A stretch of 49,995 nt of DNA, taken from the IMG/VR virus record IMGVR_UViG_2721755643_000006, positions 1 to 49,995 of that record. One strand, written 5' to 3'. The position numbers and the translations under genes are program-made. The stretch comes from a virus (taxonomy: Duplodnaviria > Heunggongvirae > Uroviricota > Caudoviricetes). The notes beneath the pieces were generated by a model. The model had not been told where the DNA came from. It saw nothing but the letters and a program-made list of their open reading frames with translations, and searched no databases. Positions 38,101-42,832 of this stretch are shown here, piece after piece. Position 1 is the first letter of the stretch. Each line of letters opens with the position of its first letter.

Positions 38101-38847
38101 CTACTTAACAACCCTCGAATGGCTAACATTCGGACGCCAGCTCTCCCAGTTAAAATTCACCCAGCGCCCGCCGTTCATGACCATGCGATCCATCACCCGC
38201 TCGCCGAGAAGTGTATTCATCGCTGCATGGTTAATATTTGTCAGCATCCCCACACCGCGTAACGATGCCGTCCGGCGATCAACAATCTGGTTCAGTACCA
38301 CCTGCTCGTTTTTCGTATCCCGCTGCATGCCAATTTCATCCAGGACCAGCAGGTCAACACCACAAAGCTCCTGTAAAAATTTTTCACCGGATTTGCCGTT
38401 GTCGTAGCTCTCATGCAACACGCTCATGACATCGGACACGGTGACGATAATCACGCTACGCCCCTTCGCCATCAGCCGGTTGCCAATCGCGGCTGCAAGA
38501 TGATTTTTTCCGGTGCCGGGCTTACCGCTGAACACAAAATTCGTACAGCCTGTCATCAGTTCGTCAGCTATGGATTTCGCCTGACTCAGTGCATGTCGCT
38601 GACCGTCGTTCTGCGCCCGGTAATTCGCAAACGAACACTTCCGGTGCAACGGCTGGATGCCGGAGCGGTTCAGGATTTTTTCCACCCGCAACTGACGATT
38701 CTGACGGTTAATCTCCCTGCAACGCTTCCGACCTTCAGCAAGCTGCCACTCCTGCCATTCTTCCGCCGTCCGGAACAACGGTGTCACGTGCTGCGGTACC
38801 AGCCTGCGAATACGTTCCAGAGCGCCCCCTGACGCAATGTTTTTCAT
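38101..38847 (-). CDS. DnaC-like helicase loader (IstB-type AAA+ ATPase)
   Basis: Walker A FVFSGKPGTGKNHLAAAIG and Walker B LLVLDEIG; Rac YdaV-like. Confidence 0.9.
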   Translation of the reverse strand: MKNIASGGALERIRRLVPQHVTPLFRTAEEWQEWQLAEGRKRCREINRQNRQLRVEKILNRSGIQPLHRKCSFANYRAQNDGQRHALSQAKSIADELMTGCTNFVFSGKPGTGKNHLAAAIGNRLMAKGRSVIIVTVSDVMSVLHESYDNGKSGEKFLQELCGVDLLVLDEIGMQRDTKNEQVVLNQIVDRRTASLRGVGMLTNINHAAMNTLLGERVMDRMVMNGGRWVNFNWESWRPNVSHSRVVK

Positions 38848-38853
38848 GGTACG

Positions 38854-39963
38854 CTACCCCCTGAACCCCGGCGGTATTTCAGTATCCGGTTCAGAAATTT
38901 GATTCACACAACGCTGGTTGTTCGTACCGCTTACCGGGAGCAACCAGGGGTTTTCAAAATTCCGGTCCGGTCCAAAAAACGTCGTCGCTCGCTGAACAAA
39001 TTCCGTTCCCGTTTTCCCGGTAGCCGCCAGATATCTTGCGTAACGCCTCACGCCATCCAGCATGGCCTCTGGTGGCACCCCCTCGCGTAATCTGGCCTTC
39101 CAGGCACTGAAAGCGGATTTCTTCGGGTTTGCCCCGGCACGCAACGGGTACTCCCGCCAGACCTGTTCGAACACGTCCGGATAATCCACTCGTCCCACAG
39201 GCTGCCCGGTGTTTTCCGGGACTACCCAATCGGCTTCCCGCTGAATGGCGGAATCGGCTTCAGGCTGCTGCAGTTGGTGTGATTGCTCCGGCCTTGCGGT
39301 CATCACCTGCTGCACAGCGCCCGAATCGGCTTTCAGCGCATACGCTGAATCGGCTTCCGGTGTCGTGCCTGCTGGCTGACCAGGATTGACGGTCTGAACA
39401 TCCCCTGCCTGGTTCGTGGCGATTTTTTCGCCATGAACCATAGTGTTTTTGTCCTGTTCCTGTTCTTTCTCCTGTTCCTGTTCTTGGCTTCGAAGCCCCT
39501 TTAAAGCCCCTTCGAAGCCCCTTACCGTATTTCGGTTGTTATTTCGCCTTACATCCAGATGAAAATCCGTCTTATATCTGTCATAAAACGCTGAAAGAAA
39601 AGCGTTTTCAGGTAATGACGCATATTCACTCCTGACACCTGCACAACGGTTATCGCCAGGCTTTAACTTTCCCCCAACCTGCCAGGCTGCCATTTCATGG
39701 ACCCAGACCATCTCGGAATCATGGTCATAACTGCAAAAACCCACTTCGACAGCCCTTCGAAGCCCCTTCGAAGCCCCTTCCGGACCAAGCCCGGTTTCAT
39801 GAGCAAGGTACAAAACCGGCAGGTAATACAGGCCCAGCATGTTTGCGTGAGGGGATGTCATCAGGTAAAAAGCAACCACCTGCGCTTCTGCGCCTGCCTT
39901 TCTGAGTTCTTTCCCCGTTTCTCCCAGCCAGAATCGCGGGGAAACTTTTGCGTAATCACGCAT
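38854..39963 (-). CDS. Replication initiation protein (lambda O-like N-terminal domain, YdaU-like)
   Basis: N-terminus MRDYAKVSPRFWLGETGKELRKAGAEAQVVAFYLMTSPHANMLGLYYLPV typical of phage replication initiators; GAGGTG 4 nt upstream; contains iteron-like repeats. Confidence 0.7.
   Translation of the reverse strand: MRDYAKVSPRFWLGETGKELRKAGAEAQVVAFYLMTSPHANMLGLYYLPVLYLAHETGLGPEGASKGLRRAVEVGFCSYDHDSEMVWVHEMAAWQVGGKLKPGDNRCAGVRSEYASLPENAFLSAFYDRYKTDFHLDVRRNNNRNTVRGFEGALKGLRSQEQEQEKEQEQDKNTMVHGEKIATNQAGDVQTVNPGQPAGTTPEADSAYALKADSGAVQQVMTARPEQSHQLQQPEADSAIQREADWVVPENTGQPVGRVDYPDVFEQVWREYPLRAGANPKKSAFSAWKARLREGVPPEAMLDGVRRYARYLAATGKTGTEFVQRATTFFGPDRNFENPWLLPVSGTNNQRCVNQISEPDTEIPPGFRG
39449..39784. 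repeat. Iteron-like repeats inside the O-like gene (candidate origin)
   Basis: Two clusters of CCTTCGAAGCCCC-type repeats (39488-39523 and 39751-39784) plus a CTGTTCCTGTTC repeat (39449-39487). Confidence 0.5.
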
Positions 39964-40184
39964 GTCCACCTCATCTGGTGCCGAACCTTCCTCCGGATAT
40001 AATCTGTGATTCCCCAATCAACAGAACCAGAGGAGGTTCGACATGTCTTTTTTGAAAAGCCTTTATCGGGCTCATATATTAAAAGTTGCAGCAACAAATC
40101 ACTGGCAAGAAGGAACAGATGAAATGTTGCCGGATTACCGGGCATGGCTGCGCGCCGAAACATACCTTCGTCTCGATATGCTGA

Positions 40185-40694
40185 TTAACGATCTTCAAAA
40201 AGAGGCTCCATCCACTCAAACCCTTCAGGGTGTCGGCGCTGTTCGCGTTCTGGTATCTCGCCATAACGCTCTCTCAGTAACTGAAGTGCGTCAGCTTTCT
40301 TTTGCTGAACTGATTTTCTTGCTTCAGCCAGCTCTGGAATCAGTGAATATCCCATCGGAGGTGTTCCGGTATCCGCCCCACGTGAACCAACAGCTACAAG
40401 CTGCACAAGACAACAGGCATGCTGGATTGACTCCCTGCTCAGAGGCTGAATGGGATCATTCTCTGCTGAAGAGATACCAAGATTTGTATAATCCTCAATA
40501 AGCCGGGCGCACGCTTCAGCATCAGCCAGTTTTTTTCTGGTTTCCTTGCGCTGTTCTCTGACGGACAAACGCCAGAGCAGCGCATTGGCTTTATGCATCA
40601 GCCACTCTGCCAGTTCCACATCAGATAAACCGCCACGCCAGATGTGTGGACTGTTTTCGTAAACGCTCAGTGTCAGTTTTTTGTCATTGGTCAT
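40185..40694 (-). CDS. Hypothetical early-right protein
   Basis: 169-aa ORF from MTNDKK in the operon strand; overlapped antisense by ORF 40043-40501, see findings. Confidence 0.45.
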   Translation of the reverse strand: MTNDKKLTLSVYENSPHIWRGGLSDVELAEWLMHKANALLWRLSVREQRKETRKKLADAEACARLIEDYTNLGISSAENDPIQPLSRESIQHACCLVQLVAVGSRGADTGTPPMGYSLIPELAEARKSVQQKKADALQLLRERYGEIPEREQRRHPEGFEWMEPLFEDR

Positions 40695-40707
40695 ATTTAT
40701 TGCCCCG

Positions 40708-41133
40708 TCAATGCACAGCCAGAGTATTTCCTGCCGGACCACCACGATTCATCTGATCGAACAGAACGATCGCTGATGCAACGAAATCATCGATATCTTT
40801 CACCAGCTGTTCCTGCGTCTCCAGCAGTTCCCGAAAATAAACTGAACTGTGGCTGCGCATTCGGGCCACCAGCGGAGGCGGCATTGCCTTTTCGATCGCT
40901 GGTAACAACGCCTGAATTTTTTTAACAGCATCAGGGGTGTCTTTCTCTATCCAGCGGAAAATTTTCTGAGTATTGCGAGCCAGGGCTTCCGGATGGCTGT
41001 CGTCATATAGCTCCGGGAACGTCATACCCAGCTCAAAATAAGCCCAGGTTATTTCAGCTGCCGGAACTTTTTCACCGTCCGGATGCGCCCAGGCATTCAT
41101 CGCCATGCGGATGTGTTCATGCTTGATTTTCAT
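40708..41133 (-). CDS. YdaT-like protein (Rac prophage family)
   Basis: Begins MKIKHEHI and ends ...AVH as remembered for Rac YdaT; follows the Cro-like gene. Confidence 0.55.
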   Translation of the reverse strand: MKIKHEHIRMAMNAWAHPDGEKVPAAEITWAYFELGMTFPELYDDSHPEALARNTQKIFRWIEKDTPDAVKKIQALLPAIEKAMPPPLVARMRSHSSVYFRELLETQEQLVKDIDDFVASAIVLFDQMNRGGPAGNTLAVH

Positions 41134-41136
41134 GAA

Positions 41137-41418
41137 TCAACCTCCATCAGCCTTTTTGGTGTTAAGTTCATATTTGTGACGTGAAGGAGACGTGATTCCA
41201 GTGTATTCGGGCCATATAAGATCCCAGTCATTAGGTCTCAATTCTCGTCTTGTAACATGTCCTCCAGTTTCTGCTTCTATCATCAACGCACGAACAGGAG
41301 ACACAGGTGAAGTTCCAGATGCCATTTGGGACAAGAAAGACGGAGACACACCAAGATTGGTCGCAAATTTTTTTGCTTCTCCAGTTTTTAATGATTTGAT
41401 GAATTCCTTTAGCGTCAT
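41137..41418 (-). CDS. Cro/DicC/YdaS-like HTH protein, first gene of the early-right operon
   Basis: 93 aa with HTH (ATNLGVSPSFLSQMASG), divergent from the DicA-like repressor. Confidence 0.7.
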   Translation of the reverse strand: MTLKEFIKSLKTGEAKKFATNLGVSPSFLSQMASGTSPVSPVRALMIEAETGGHVTRRELRPNDWDLIWPEYTGITSPSRHKYELNTKKADGG

Positions 41419-41520
41419 AATTTTTATCTCAGCACATTTAGAACAAGTAAAAGTTTATACGCAACTAAATAAACCAGTCAAGTATTTGCTTGTTTTGCGA
41501 TTACTAAAGATAATGCATGT

Positions 41521-41892
41521 ATGGAAACAAAAGAGATTCGGCGTTTACGCCTCAAAGAGTGGTTCAAAGACAGGACTTTGCCGCCTAAAGAGAAAAGTTA
41601 CTTATCTCAGTTAATGAGTGGTAAAGCTACGTTTGGCGAAAAGGCAGCTAGACGTATTGAGCAAACATATGGGATGCCTGGGGGGTATCTTGATATGGAA
41701 CCTGAAGATACAACAGAATCTCCGTCATCAAGATCTATGGCATTAACTCCTAACCAATTGGAATTGTTGCAAATATTTAGTGCTTTTCCTGACGCTGAGC
41801 AGCAGGAAATCATAAAAGAGCTAAGAAACAAAAAAGAGGCAATGGAAGATCTTGTTGCACGTTGGTTGGCGCGGCAAGGTCGCCGAGCCTGA
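41521..41892 (+). CDS. DicA-like prophage repressor (HTH_XRE plus DicA-type C-terminal domain)
   Basis: HTH segment and C-terminal LTPNQLELLQIFSAFPDAEQQEIIKELRNKKEAMEDLVARWLA parallel to Qin DicA. Confidence 0.75.
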   Translation: METKEIRRLRLKEWFKDRTLPPKEKSYLSQLMSGKATFGEKAARRIEQTYGMPGGYLDMEPEDTTESPSSRSMALTPNQLELLQIFSAFPDAEQQEIIKELRNKKEAMEDLVARWLARQGRRA

Positions 41893-41922: not shown

Positions 41923-42384
41923 ATGGGCGTACTCGAAATCAGTGCTCTTAGAATTAAGATGCTTCTATTGGCAAAAGGCTGGAGCCAAGCAGAACTTGCG
42001 CGCAGAATTGGTATTGCTCAACAATCCGTCCAAAGGTGGGTTTGTGGCATCTCAAGCCCTACAGCAGCCAACCTAGATAAACTATCTGATGTGACTGGAT
42101 TTCCTCAGTATTGGTTTTTCTTACCATTAAATGAAGAAAATAAGGACAGGGCACAGGATATATTAAAAATAACCCCTACGCAAAAGGAACTACTTCAAAC
42201 ATTTGAGGCATTTCCAGAGGAAGAGCAACAGCAAATGCTTAAAGATATGAAGGAGAAAAAAGAGACAATGGATCGTATAGTTGCAAAGTGGCTAGCAGCA
42301 CAACAAAAAGTTCCTAGGCAGGATTACCAGTACTTACAAGACGAGGTTCACCATGAACACGGCCCTTTCACCAATGGTTTCTGA
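41923..42384 (+). CDS. paaR2: PaaR2-like regulator of the three-component TA system (DicA paralogue)
   Basis: HTH (LLLAKGWSQAELARRIGIAQQSVQRWV) plus C-terminal domain paralogous to the upstream repressor; directly precedes paaA2-parE2. Confidence 0.75.
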   Translation: MGVLEISALRIKMLLLAKGWSQAELARRIGIAQQSVQRWVCGISSPTAANLDKLSDVTGFPQYWFFLPLNEENKDRAQDILKITPTQKELLQTFEAFPEEEQQQMLKDMKEKKETMDRIVAKWLAAQQKVPRQDYQYLQDEVHHEHGPFTNGF

Positions 42385-42544
42385 ATTTGAAACCGTCGAG
42401 CAAGAAAATAGTTATAACGAATGGCTGCGTGCAAAAGTGGCCGCAAGCCTTGCTGATCCACGTCCAGCCATTCCCCATGACGAAGTTGAACGCAGAATGG
42501 CTGAACGCTTTGCTAACATGCGCAAGGAACGGAGCAAACAGTAA
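42353..42544 (+). CDS. paaA2: PaaA2 antitoxin
   Basis: MNTALSPMVSEFETVEQENSYNEWLRAKVAASLADPRPAIPHDEVERRMAERFANMRKERSKQ nearly identical to E. coli O157 PaaA2 as recalled. Confidence 0.82.
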   Translation: MNTALSPMVSEFETVEQENSYNEWLRAKVAASLADPRPAIPHDEVERRMAERFANMRKERSKQ

Positions 42545-42832
42545 ATGTTACCGGTTTTATGGCTCGAAAGCGCAGATGCCGACCTAGATAATATAACCAG
42601 CTATATTGCACGTTTTGACATAGATGCGGCAGAACGTTTGTGGAAACGCTTAAGGACTTGCGTCCTGCCATTATCTGAACATCCGTATTTATACCCGCCA
42701 AGCGACAGAGTGCCTGGTTTGCGTGAAATTGTAGCTCACCCCAATTACATCATTCTGTACCGCGTGACAATTTCAGGCATTGAAATTGTTAACGTAGTTC
42801 ACGCCCGCCGACAGTTCCCTGTAACACCTTAA
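42545..42832 (+). CDS. parE2: ParE2 toxin (RelE/ParE superfamily)
   Basis: 95-aa ORF whose start abuts the antitoxin stop (TAAATG). Confidence 0.82.
   Translation: MLPVLWLESADADLDNITSYIARFDIDAAERLWKRLRTCVLPLSEHPYLYPPSDRVPGLREIVAHPNYIILYRVTISGIEIVNVVHARRQFPVTP

What the first reader, a model, noticed from the sequence alone, without database searches (positions are those of the whole stretch)
40017..40745. Two long overlapping ORFs on opposite strands in the replication region, both with credible signals
The operon-strand ORF (40185-40694, 169 aa) overlaps by ~316 bp an antisense ORF (40043-40501, 152 aa). The antisense ORF has an AGGAGG site 7 nt from its ATG and a consensus TATAAT at 39998-40003, just upstream. 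Both translations look protein-like. Either the antisense gene is a real embedded accessory gene or it is a striking chance ORF; I cannot decide from sequence alone.
Basis: seen in the sequence. Interest (0 to 1): 0.45.

Follow-up and report, generated by a model that had tools for sequence, protein, structure and literature searches.

The report
Two real genes sharing one DNA stretch
Both opposite-strand ORFs are conserved protein-coding genes, and about 250 bp of their 317-bp overlap is under selection in both reading frames across prophages of several Enterobacteriaceae genera, a dual coding that I found neither in the annotations I examined nor in my literature searches.

Summary
In detail: ORFs at 40043-40501 (+, 152 aa) and 40185-40694 (-, 169 aa) overlap tail-to-tail by 317 bp. 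Neither is a chance ORF.

- **Databases disagree.** The + ORF is NCBIfam NF033230 (ECs1072 family) and is the only one RefSeq annotates in E. coli. The - ORF is PHROG 8304. In Klebsiella the - family protein carries RefSeq (WP_) accessions as a hypothetical protein.
- **Both ORFs are kept.** Both are intact in at least 12 divergent lineages, down to 33-46% amino-acid identity.
- **Non-overlapping parts.** Each N-terminal part shows the single-frame coding signature of its own frame. Identity at codon positions 1/2/3 is 55/69/37 for + and 61/67/44 for -.
- **Core overlap (40253-40498).** All three positions are about equally conserved (61/57/53).
- **Natural controls.** In two lineages that lost the - gene, + third positions fall to saturation (28% and 34%) and stops appear in the - frame.
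- **Selection estimates.** OLGenie-style dN/dS is below 1 for both frames: + 0.33-0.37, - 0.47-0.50. Single-coded flanks give the expected null for the phantom frame.
- **Structure.** AlphaFold models the + protein confidently (pLDDT 88.7).

Function is unknown for both proteins. The best guess is a lytic-operon gene and an independently expressed antisense gene whose convergent transcription makes them mutually exclusive. Expression was not tested.

The parts
40043..40501 (+). Gene A: ECs1072-family protein, 152 aa, antisense to the early (pR-type) operon, with its own strong Shine-Dalgarno sequence
   Evidence: NCBIfam NF033230 scores 100.6 bits against a cut-off of 70. RefSeq annotates it. 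It is intact in every lineage examined except recent nonsense variants, one decayed copy and one truncated remnant. Codon-position identity in its private part is 55/69/37, with dN/dS 0.20 there. AF2 gives pLDDT 88.7 and pTM 0.86.
40185..40694 (-). Gene B: PHROG 8304-family protein, 169 aa, co-directional with the cro-like, YdaT/CII-like and replication genes; its ATG lies 13 nt after the YdaT-like stop
   Evidence: PHROG 8304 E = 1.7e-91 over the full 169-position profile. A profile search of 1.84 billion representatives gives 24 hits, 18 at E <= 1e-10, mostly about 146-163 aa (alignment A4). Codon-position identity in its private part is 61/67/44, with dN/dS 0.12 there. AF2 gives pLDDT 70.3, long helices.
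40253..40498 (.). Core overlap, about 82 codons, constrained in both frames (dual coding)
   Evidence: + frame identity at positions 1/2/3 is 61/57/53 in 45 deep pairs of lineages that keep both genes. It is 51/51/28 (L005) and 39/56/34 (L097) against lineages lacking gene B (sliding windows). dNN/dSN = 0.33 and dNN/dNS = 0.50. Pooled moderate pairs over the whole overlap give 0.37 and 0.47, with no bootstrap replicate reaching 1.
40185..40252 (-). Variable C-terminal tail of gene B, which overlaps a variable linker of gene A
   Evidence: The tail differs in length and sequence after the conserved 'YGEIP'. + third positions are saturated here (42/48/32). Neither dN/dS differs significantly from 1.
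39978..40044 (.). Conserved ~65-nt imperfect inverted repeat just upstream of gene A. It contains TATAAT (39998-40003) in its loop region and the SD (40031-40036) and the ATG in its 3' arm
   Evidence: Conserved in about 16 lineages whatever the neighbouring gene. Predicted hairpin is -26 kcal/mol on + (z = -2.6) and -34.5 kcal/mol on - (z = -3.6). 87.7% of cells are paired against 37-46% when partners are slid, with almost no covariation. The strand is undecided.
40708..41133 (-). Upstream neighbour in the operon: YdaT / CII-like regulator
   Evidence: Pfam PF06254, PHROG 163 CII-like, RefSeq annotation.
38854..39963 (-). Downstream neighbour in the operon: DnaD/O-like replication initiator. 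The RefSeq start is at 39963; the mechanical TTG ORF runs to 40017
   Evidence: PHROG 1701 and 3729. RefSeq CDS at L001 2155-3264.

Best explanation
The region holds a mobile two-gene cassette of temperate Enterobacteriaceae phages. Two convergent protein-coding genes overlap tail-to-tail. Gene B (- strand, 169 aa, PHROG 8304) is part of the early lytic operon: cro-like, YdaT/CII-like, gene B, then the replication genes. Gene A (+ strand, 152 aa, ECs1072 family) is read in the opposite direction from its own strong ribosome-binding site behind a conserved leader. Their 3' halves share 317 bp, and about 250 bp (40253-40498) encodes conserved parts of both proteins, so that stretch is truly dual-coding.

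Shown here: both frames are conserved, both are under purifying selection, and both ORFs are kept open across deep divergence.

Inferred: gene B is made from the pR-type early transcript during lytic growth. Gene A is transcribed convergently from its own promoter, probably in the lysogen, since it points the same way as the cI-like repressor genes. The overlap would then make expression of one interfere with the other, through colliding polymerases and complementary mRNAs. The biochemical function of both proteins is unknown.
For: 1. Independent family support. NF033230 matches gene A and PHROG 8304 matches gene B. Homologues of both reach about 35-55% identity.

2. Co-inheritance. Sixteen loci retrieved through distant gene-B relatives (33-46% identity) all encode a full-length gene-A relative on the opposite strand, and both ORFs were read through as intact in the 10 inspected. 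The Klebsiella oxytoca locus L099 also has both.

3. Frame-specific signatures in the private parts. The + only segment gives 55/69/37 identity at + positions 1/2/3. The - only segment gives 61/67/44 at - positions 1/2/3.

4. The core overlap gives 61/57/53. + third positions (= - second positions) are protected only in lineages that keep gene B. In L005 and L097, where gene B is gone, they fall to 28% and 34%.

5. OLGenie-type estimates. Overlap: dNN 0.091, dSN 0.246, dNS 0.194, so + dN/dS is 0.37 [0.23-0.64] and - dN/dS is 0.47 [0.30-0.75]. By segment, with controls: + only gives + 0.20 and phantom - 1.10; - only gives - 0.12 and phantom + 18; the core gives + 0.33 (P = 0.002) and - 0.50 (P = 0.035).

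6. Stop codons. There are none in the gene-B frame of the core in 14 lineages, against 2 and 6 in the two gene-B-less lineages and 1-7 in the other antisense frames.

7. Structure. Gene A gets a confident all-helical AF2 model over its whole length, including the overlapped half.

8. Context. Gene B always runs with the early operon and gene A always against it, in lambdoid (YdaT, CII/CP76) and Cox/Ash-type contexts.
Against: - No transcription or translation data were available. The only literature trace is a microarray table listing ECs1072 as changing 2.1-fold in Sakai.
- The gene-B dN/dS in the core is only modestly below 1 within the E. coli cluster alone (upper bootstrap bound 1.06).
- The gene-B AF2 model is mediocre (pLDDT 70).
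- The handful of polymorphisms in the O157-type prophage look relaxed: 5 nonsynonymous to 1 synonymous in the gene-B private part, and two nonsense alleles of gene A.
- Each gene is broken in a few lineages. Gene B is frameshifted in L010-12 and L091. Gene A carries stops in L040, L043 and L096.
- A good sigma-70 promoter for gene A is not conserved.
- The mutual-exclusion mechanism is inference only.
- Neither protein matches any fold, Pfam or defence family of known function.
Confidence: 0.8

Rival explanations
1. Only the + gene (ECs1072 family) is real. The operon-strand ORF is a 'shadow' ORF kept open and apparently conserved as a by-product of constraint on the + protein.
For: RefSeq annotates only the + ORF in E. 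coli. The + gene survives where the - ORF is lost or frameshifted (L005, L097, L010, L091). The + AF2 model is much better than the - model.
Against: The 64 N-terminal codons of the - ORF lie outside the + gene. They show a - frame coding signature (61/67/44) and dN/dS 0.12. A profile search finds 24 gene-B relatives. + third positions are conserved in the core only where the - ORF exists. dNN/dNS is below 1 in the overlap, while the same script gives 1.10 for a phantom - frame in the + only segment. The - frame has 0 stops in 14 lineages, and the chance of staying open is 1-2% per sequence.
Confidence: 0.05
2. Only the operon-strand gene (PHROG 8304) is real. The + ORF with its AGGAGG is a chance antisense ORF.
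For: The - ORF sits in the natural operon position, 13 nt after the YdaT-like stop. Given the - protein, the + frame stays open in 7-19% of synonymous shuffles. Nonsense alleles of the + ORF exist in O157-type prophages.
Against: The 47-codon private part of the + gene has a + frame signature (55/69/37) and dN/dS 0.20. The + ORF is full-length in all deep lineages. That includes two lineages with no - gene, where it shows a normal single-gene signature along its whole length. It matches a curated NCBIfam model above cut-off. Its AF2 model has pLDDT 88.7 from only 14 sequences. Its SD and leader are conserved.
Confidence: 0.03
3. Both genes are real, but only the N-terminal domain of the - protein (about 65-80 aa) is functional. 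The extra conservation of + third positions in the overlap would reflect an RNA-level constraint, such as antisense pairing between the two mRNAs or an mRNA structure, and not selection on the - protein's C-terminal two-thirds.
For: The - protein's C-terminal tail is variable and its AF2 confidence is low after about residue 70. L010-12 carry an 83-aa frameshifted version whose conserved motifs have begun to degenerate. The core dNN/dNS in the E. coli cluster is only borderline (upper bound 1.06).
Against: The - frame is free of stops over the 82-codon core in 14 lineages, while the other antisense frames carry 1-7. Protein motifs are conserved across 18 family representatives, for example 'Y..LG.S...DPI..LS.E.I' and 'P.GYS.LP.L.E'. 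The pooled dNN/dNS of 0.47 has no bootstrap replicate at or above 1. Changes concentrate at - synonymous sites rather than being evenly suppressed, as a purely RNA-level constraint would predict.
Confidence: 0.1

Closest known systems
Antisense (opposite-strand) overlapping protein-coding gene pairs in bacteria, e.g. the EHEC pairs laoB/ECs5115 and ano/ECs2385 and the long Pseudomonas aeruginosa pairs
   Same: Two proteins are encoded on opposite strands of the same DNA. Annotation pipelines keep only one of them. Support comes from purifying selection measured with OLGenie-type dNN/dNS (papers PMC5810103, PMC5960689, PMC8850804, seen as titles and abstracts).
   Different: As their abstracts describe them, those cases are antisense ORFs embedded, or almost completely embedded, within an annotated gene. 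laoB is described as arising by overprinting and the P. aeruginosa pair as evolutionarily novel. Here the overlap is partial and tail-to-tail. Each partner has a private N-terminal part. Both partners are conserved and co-inherited to about 35% amino-acid identity across several Enterobacteriaceae genera. Neither can be called the younger. There is no expression evidence here, whereas those studies have Ribo-seq.
Lambda oop antisense RNA (promoter pO between cII and O, transcribed against the pR transcript and overlapping the 3' end of cII); stated from my own knowledge of lambda biology
   Same: In this window, gene A starts next to the start of the O-like replication gene. It is read towards the CII-like gene, against the early-right transcript. 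That is the same position and orientation as oop.
   Different: oop is a 77-nt non-coding RNA. Gene A is a 152-aa ORF under protein-level selection with a confident fold. No Rfam family matches the region. The cassette also occurs in non-lambdoid positions: after cro and before CII in Klebsiella-type loci, and in Cox/Ash-type early regions. It is therefore not a positional homologue of oop.
Face-to-face (convergent) lytic and lysogenic promoters of P2- and 186-type phages, which act by transcriptional interference; stated from my own knowledge
   Same: Convergent transcription units of opposite developmental programmes overlap, so activity of one can suppress the other. Several cassette copies sit in Cox-type (P2-like) early regions.
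   Different: In P2 and 186 the overlap is a short untranslated stretch between promoters. Here the overlap is about 317 bp of coding sequence at the 3' ends of two genes. Interference was not tested.
NCBIfam NF033230 'ECs1072 family phage-associated protein' and PHROG 8304 (unknown function)
   Same: Gene A is a member of the first and gene B a member of the second.
   Different: Each library's scan returned a family for only one of the two ORFs, and neither family has a known function. I did not inspect the family records themselves for any mention of the overlap.

Membership tests
NCBIfam NF033230 (ECs1072 family phage-associated protein) | HMM score at or above the curated cut-off (70 bits) over the full model length | tested here: met
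   100.6 bits, residues 4-146 on profile positions 3-141 of 142.
PHROG 8304 | Full-length profile match | tested here: met
   E = 1.7e-91, profile positions 1-169 of 169 on residues 18-186 of the GTG-extended ORF, which corresponds to the ATG-40694 protein.
Antisense overlapping gene pair (functional dual coding) | Both ORFs kept intact in divergent homologues | tested here: met
   Both are intact in L001, L002, L003/4, L007, L013, L014, L049, L093, L094, L099, L131 and L133-L146. Exceptions are listed in the report.
Antisense overlapping gene pair (functional dual coding) | Purifying selection on each frame inside the overlap, with the other frame held constant (dNN/dSN < 1 and dNN/dNS < 1) | tested here: met
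   0.37 [0.23-0.64] and 0.47 [0.30-0.75]. Core overlap 0.33 and 0.50, with correct nulls in the single-coded flanks. My own re-implementation of the method, on few sequences.
Antisense overlapping gene pair (functional dual coding) | Loss of one partner relaxes the sites that were synonymous only in the surviving partner | tested here: met
   + third-position identity in the core is 53% with gene B present, against 28% (L005) and 34% (L097) with gene B absent.
Antisense overlapping gene pair (functional dual coding) | Transcription and translation of both frames | not testable with these tools
   No RNA-seq, Ribo-seq or proteomics data were accessible. The only trace is a microarray entry for ECs1072.
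Lambda oop-type antisense RNA | Short non-coding RNA with its own promoter and intrinsic terminator, complementary to the 3' end of cII | tested here: not met
   No Rfam match. The antisense unit is a 152-codon ORF under protein-level selection. It overlaps gene B, not the YdaT/CII-like gene.
Known anti-phage defence or toxin-antitoxin proteins | Match to a PADLOC, Pfam or NCBIfam defence or TA model | tested here: not met
   No PADLOC hit for either protein at E <= 1. No meaningful Pfam hit.

The most novel reading that the evidence does not exclude
The overlap is itself the mechanism. The cassette would be a self-contained convergent switch in which gene A (prophage-expressed) and gene B (early-lytic) are functional antagonists, made mutually exclusive by colliding transcription and mRNA duplex formation over the shared 317 bp. 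The conserved 65-nt SD-sequestering inverted repeat would gate gene A translation. On this reading the pair is an ancient, co-evolving, dual-coded regulatory or exclusion module, carried between unrelated temperate-phage early regions as a single unit because the two genes cannot be separated physically.
Probability: 0.25. Interest if true: 0.8.

Novelty: new member of a known kind. Interest (0 to 1): 0.62.

Why it matters
Long antisense overlaps between protein-coding genes in bacteria and their phages are still disputed. The cases I found described are antisense ORFs embedded in an annotated gene. They are supported mainly by expression data, and two are described as evolutionarily young.

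This pair supplies the complementary kind of evidence. Both partners are conserved to about 35% identity across several Enterobacteriaceae genera. Each has a single-coded flank that serves as an internal control. Two lineages that lost one partner act as natural knock-outs and show the expected relaxation.

It also exposes a concrete annotation problem. RefSeq names the + gene in 458 of 5,426 complete E. coli genomes and omits the - gene there. In Klebsiella the - family protein is the one that carries RefSeq accessions. PHROGs has a family only for the - protein.

The cassette sits in the decision and replication region of widespread prophages, including O157:H7 prophages. It could therefore bear on lysis-lysogeny control or prophage-conferred traits, and it is directly testable with frame-specific silent and stop mutations.

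Tried and rejected
- **Function by sequence.** Pfam, NCBIfam, PHROGs and PADLOC give only the two unknown-function families. PDB sequence searches give nothing meaningful.
- **Known RNA.** No Rfam match in 39500-41600.
- **Isolated phages.** tblastn of both proteins against 50,697 phage records gave no match. A blastn search found only the flanking YdaT and O-like genes.
- **Genome contigs.** Two scans matched patterns but none was confirmed by tblastn. I do not know why, since Salmonella and Klebsiella clearly carry the cassette.
- **Leader structure.** RNAalifold kept only a 5-bp SD-loop hairpin, with no covariation. The long inverted repeat is conserved but shows almost no compensatory change, and G-U counts do not settle the strand.
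- **Gene A promoter.** The TATAAT is real in this window, but the -35 is poor and the -10 is not conserved outside the E. coli cluster. Sigma-54 and sigma-E consensus motifs, checked by eye, do not fit.
- **Polymorphisms within O157-type prophages.** Too few sites to be informative. The L015 rows are misregistered and must be ignored.
- **Literature.** No description of this pair was found. ECs1072 appears once, in a microarray table. One paper reading failed on a too-short search term.
Full report
**1. What is there**

The window region 38-42.5 kb is the immunity and replication region of a lambdoid prophage. Its early-right-type operon lies on the minus strand:
- a cro-like gene (41137-41418);
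- a YdaT/CII-like gene (40708-41133);
- the 169-codon ORF of the finding (40185-40694);
- a DnaD/O-like initiator (38854-39963);
- a DnaC-like loader (38101-38847).

Repressor-like HTH genes and a relBE pair lie on the plus strand to the right.

- a 152-codon ORF on the plus strand (40043-40501), preceded by AGGAGG (40031-40036) and TATAAT (39998-40003);
- a 317-bp overlap with the minus-strand ORF.

The frames are related as 'sas11' in the OLGenie nomenclature. Plus codon position 1 faces minus position 1, plus position 2 faces minus position 3, and plus position 3 faces minus position 2. This makes the case very discriminating. A change at a plus third position always hits a minus second position, and the reverse holds for minus third positions.

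**2. The databases disagree**

- The plus ORF matches NCBIfam NF033230, 'ECs1072 family phage-associated protein' (100.6 bits, cut-off 70).
- It is the only one of the two annotated in RefSeq E. coli genomes. 458 of 5,426 complete genomes carry the unit, mostly an O157-type version 87.4% identical.
- The minus ORF matches PHROG 8304 over the full 169 positions (E = 1.7e-91). It is not annotated in the E. coli records I inspected.
- In Klebsiella the minus-family protein carries RefSeq (WP_) accessions as 'hypothetical protein'.
- No annotation I inspected shows both genes.

**3. Both ORFs persist across deep divergence**

- Protein searches found plus-family homologues down to about 41-46% identity.
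- They found minus-family homologues down to about 25-39% identity. A profile search of 1.84 billion representatives gave 24 hits, 18 at E <= 1e-10, mostly 146-163 aa.
- I gathered 146 loci. An interim set of 96 loci gave 32 distinct DNA versions.
- Both ORFs are intact in the window type, three other E. coli types, Salmonella (L003/4), Klebsiella oxytoca (L099) and metagenomic lineages (L007, L013, L014, L049).
- Sixteen IMG/VR loci were retrieved through distant minus-family relatives at 33-46% identity. All encode a full-length plus-family relative on the opposite strand (35-46% identity in the 15 that are distant). Both ORFs were read through as intact in the 10 inspected.
- Host names attached to family members are Escherichia, Salmonella, Klebsiella spp., Yokenella and Enterobacter.

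Exceptions:
- The minus ORF is absent in L005/6 and L097/98 (Salmonella).
- It is frameshifted in L010-12 and L091.
- The plus ORF has recent nonsense alleles in two O157-type variants (L040, L043).
- It is decayed in L096.
- It is 5'-truncated at a junction with an integrase gene in L015.

No deep lineage was found with the minus gene but without the plus gene.

**4. Codon-position test**

Each gene has a private N-terminal part, which acts as an internal control.

| Segment | Frame used | Identity at pos 1/2/3 | Reading |
|---|---|---|---|
| Plus-only, 40043-40184 | plus | 55/69/37 | Single-gene signature in the plus frame |
| Minus-only, 40502-40694 | minus | 61/67/44 | Single-gene signature in the minus frame |
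| Overlap with variable minus tail, 40188-40250 | plus | 42/48/32 | Plus third positions still saturated |
| Core overlap, 40253-40498 | plus | 61/57/53 | All three positions about equally conserved |
| Core, L005 against the others (no minus gene) | plus | 51/51/28 | Plus third positions saturated |
| Core, L097 against the others (no minus gene) | plus | 39/56/34 | Plus third positions saturated |

The plus-frame rows use 45 pairs of 10 deeply diverged lineages that keep both genes. The minus-only row uses 14 deep pairs from six lineages.

Sliding windows show plus third positions at 32-39% identity up to about 40250. They then rise to 42-64% through the core overlap; among the five closer lineages the rise is to 48-73%. 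The transition coincides with the end of the conserved core of the minus protein ('YGEIP', about residue 148).

L005 and L097 behave as natural knock-outs. In them, plus third positions stay at saturation along the whole gene. The constraint on those sites therefore depends on the presence of the minus gene.

**5. dN/dS with the partner frame held constant**

I re-implemented the OLGenie logic for sas11.

Moderately diverged pairs (four E. coli types, L013-L014, L007-L091), whole overlap:
- dNN 0.091, dSN 0.246, dNS 0.194;
- plus dN/dS = 0.37 [0.23-0.64];
- minus dN/dS = 0.47 [0.30-0.75];
- no bootstrap replicate reached 1.

By segment in the E. coli cluster:

| Segment | Plus dN/dS | Minus dN/dS |
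|---|---|---|
| Plus-only | 0.20 | 1.10 (phantom frame) |
| Minus-only | 18 (phantom frame) | 0.12 |
| Core overlap | 0.33 (P = 0.002) | 0.50 (P = 0.035) |

The script gives the correct null where only one frame codes. It gives values below 1 for both frames only in the overlap.

**6. Stop-codon tests**

- With the plus protein held fixed, shuffling its synonymous codons leaves the minus frame open over 40188-40498 in 1-2% of trials.
- The reciprocal figure is 7-19%.
- In the 82-codon core the minus (sas11) frame has no stop in any of 14 lineages. The other two antisense frames have 1-7 each.
- The two minus-less lineages have 2 and 6 stops in the sas11 frame.

**7. Proteins**

- With only 14 sequences, AlphaFold2 gives the plus protein a confident all-helical globular model (pLDDT 88.7, pTM 0.86). 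Confidence is high over the overlapped C-terminal half too.
- The minus protein is modelled as long helices with moderate confidence (pLDDT 70.3).
- The minus protein has strongly conserved motifs: N-terminal 'KVTLTVFK.SPHIW.GGL', central 'Y..LG.S...DPI..LS.E.I', and 'P.GYS.LP.L.E'.
- Neither protein matches any structure, Pfam family or defence model of known function. Function is unknown for both.

**8. Context and signals**

- The minus gene always runs with the surrounding early operon and the plus gene always against it.
- This holds next to YdaT and different replication modules in E. coli.
- It holds between cro and a CP76-type CII in Klebsiella-type loci, and after Bro/Ant and Lar genes.
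- It holds in Cox/Ash/RecE-type early regions of Salmonella prophages.
- The cassette therefore moves as a unit.

Upstream of the plus ATG, about 65 nt are conserved whatever the neighbouring gene. They form an imperfect inverted repeat (39978-40044) whose 3' arm contains the SD and the ATG:
- 87.7% of cells are paired in 16 lineages, against 37-46% when partners are slid;
- there is little covariation;
- the strand is undecided.

The TATAAT of this window lies in the loop of that repeat. It is not conserved outside the E. coli cluster, so the promoter of the plus gene is not established. The minus ATG lies 13 nt after the YdaT-like stop, as expected for an operon gene.

**9. Interpretation**

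Shown: two genuine, co-inherited protein-coding genes share about 250 bp of doubly constrained sequence.

Inferred:
- The minus gene is expressed from the early lytic transcript.
- The plus gene is expressed convergently from its own signals. It points the same way as the repressor genes, and it is the partner retained when prophages decay, so the lysogen is the likely setting.
- The overlap would make the two expression states interfere with each other.

In lambdoid copies the plus gene occupies the position and orientation of lambda's oop RNA (my own knowledge). It is a protein gene, however, and it occurs in other positions too. The biochemical roles are unknown, and a partner or antagonist relationship between the two proteins is speculation.

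**10. Novelty**

Both protein families already exist in databases. Antisense overlapping genes are a known, if contested, category (PMC7531306, PMC8850804, PMC5810103). My searches found no description of this pair. It is a new and unusually well-controlled member of that category: a partial tail-to-tail overlap, both partners conserved to about 35% identity, single-coded flanks as internal controls, and two lineages that lost one partner.

**11. Weaknesses**

- There are no expression data.
- The dN/dS estimates come from my own script and few sequences.
- The minus-frame estimate within the E. coli cluster alone is borderline.
- Lineages are not phylogenetically independent.
- Hosts of the IMG/VR loci were not determined directly.

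Noticed in passing
window 39978-40044: A ~65-nt imperfect inverted repeat just upstream of the + gene is conserved in about 16 divergent lineages whatever the neighbouring gene. Its 5' arm (GGTGCCGAACCTTCCTCC) pairs with the SD and ATG arm (GAGGAGGTTCGACAT). It could sequester the ribosome-binding site, or act on the opposite-strand early transcript or on the DNA.
   Followed up: partly
whole cassette, window 40043-40694: Neither protein has any tblastn match in 50,697 deposited phage genomes. Yet the unit is in 458 of 5,426 complete E. coli genomes and in Salmonella, Klebsiella, Yokenella and Enterobacter assemblies. In the collections searched it turned up only in prophages and proviral contigs.
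   Followed up: partly
window 41521-41892 and 41923-42384 (+): Two adjacent repressor-side HTH genes have visibly similar C-terminal halves (...TPNQLELLQIFSAFPDAEQQEIIKELRNKKEAMEDLVARWLA... against ...TPTQKELLQTFEAFPEEEQQQMLKDMKEKKETMDRIVAKWLAA...). This suggests a tandem duplication in the immunity region. They are followed by a relB/relE-type pair at 42353-42832.
   Followed up: no
window 40633-40649 (+): A terminator-like hairpin with a T-run lies on the + strand about 130 nt past the + gene's stop. It falls exactly on the codons of the most conserved motif of the - protein (SPHIWRGG). It may be coincidence, or a terminator embedded in coding sequence.
   Followed up: no
L015 (E. coli, GCA_054592975.1) 2602-4494: In a prophage remnant an integrase gene abuts the cassette. 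The junction removes the first ~56 codons of the + gene and alters the last residues of the - protein. About 70 member sequences share this form.
   Followed up: partly
L010-L012 3001-3705: In another lambdoid type the cassette sits to the left of the cI-like repressor, not in the replication operon. There the - family gene is co-directional with cI, is frameshifted to an 83-aa product and has degenerating motifs (SHHIW, GRL), while the + gene is intact.
   Followed up: partly
window 39963-40017 (-): The mechanical ORF for the O-like initiator starts at TTG 40017 and would overlap the TATAAT and leader region. RefSeq starts it at ATG 39963, behind a GAGGTG SD. The conserved inverted repeat thus lies in the short spacer between the - gene and the initiator gene.
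   Followed up: no
Genome-contig scans: Both scans of the species-representative genome collection matched peptide patterns (29 and 61 stretches), but none was confirmed by tblastn. Salmonella, Klebsiella and E. coli assemblies clearly carry the cassette. Unexplained; possibly the representative genomes lack it.
   Followed up: no
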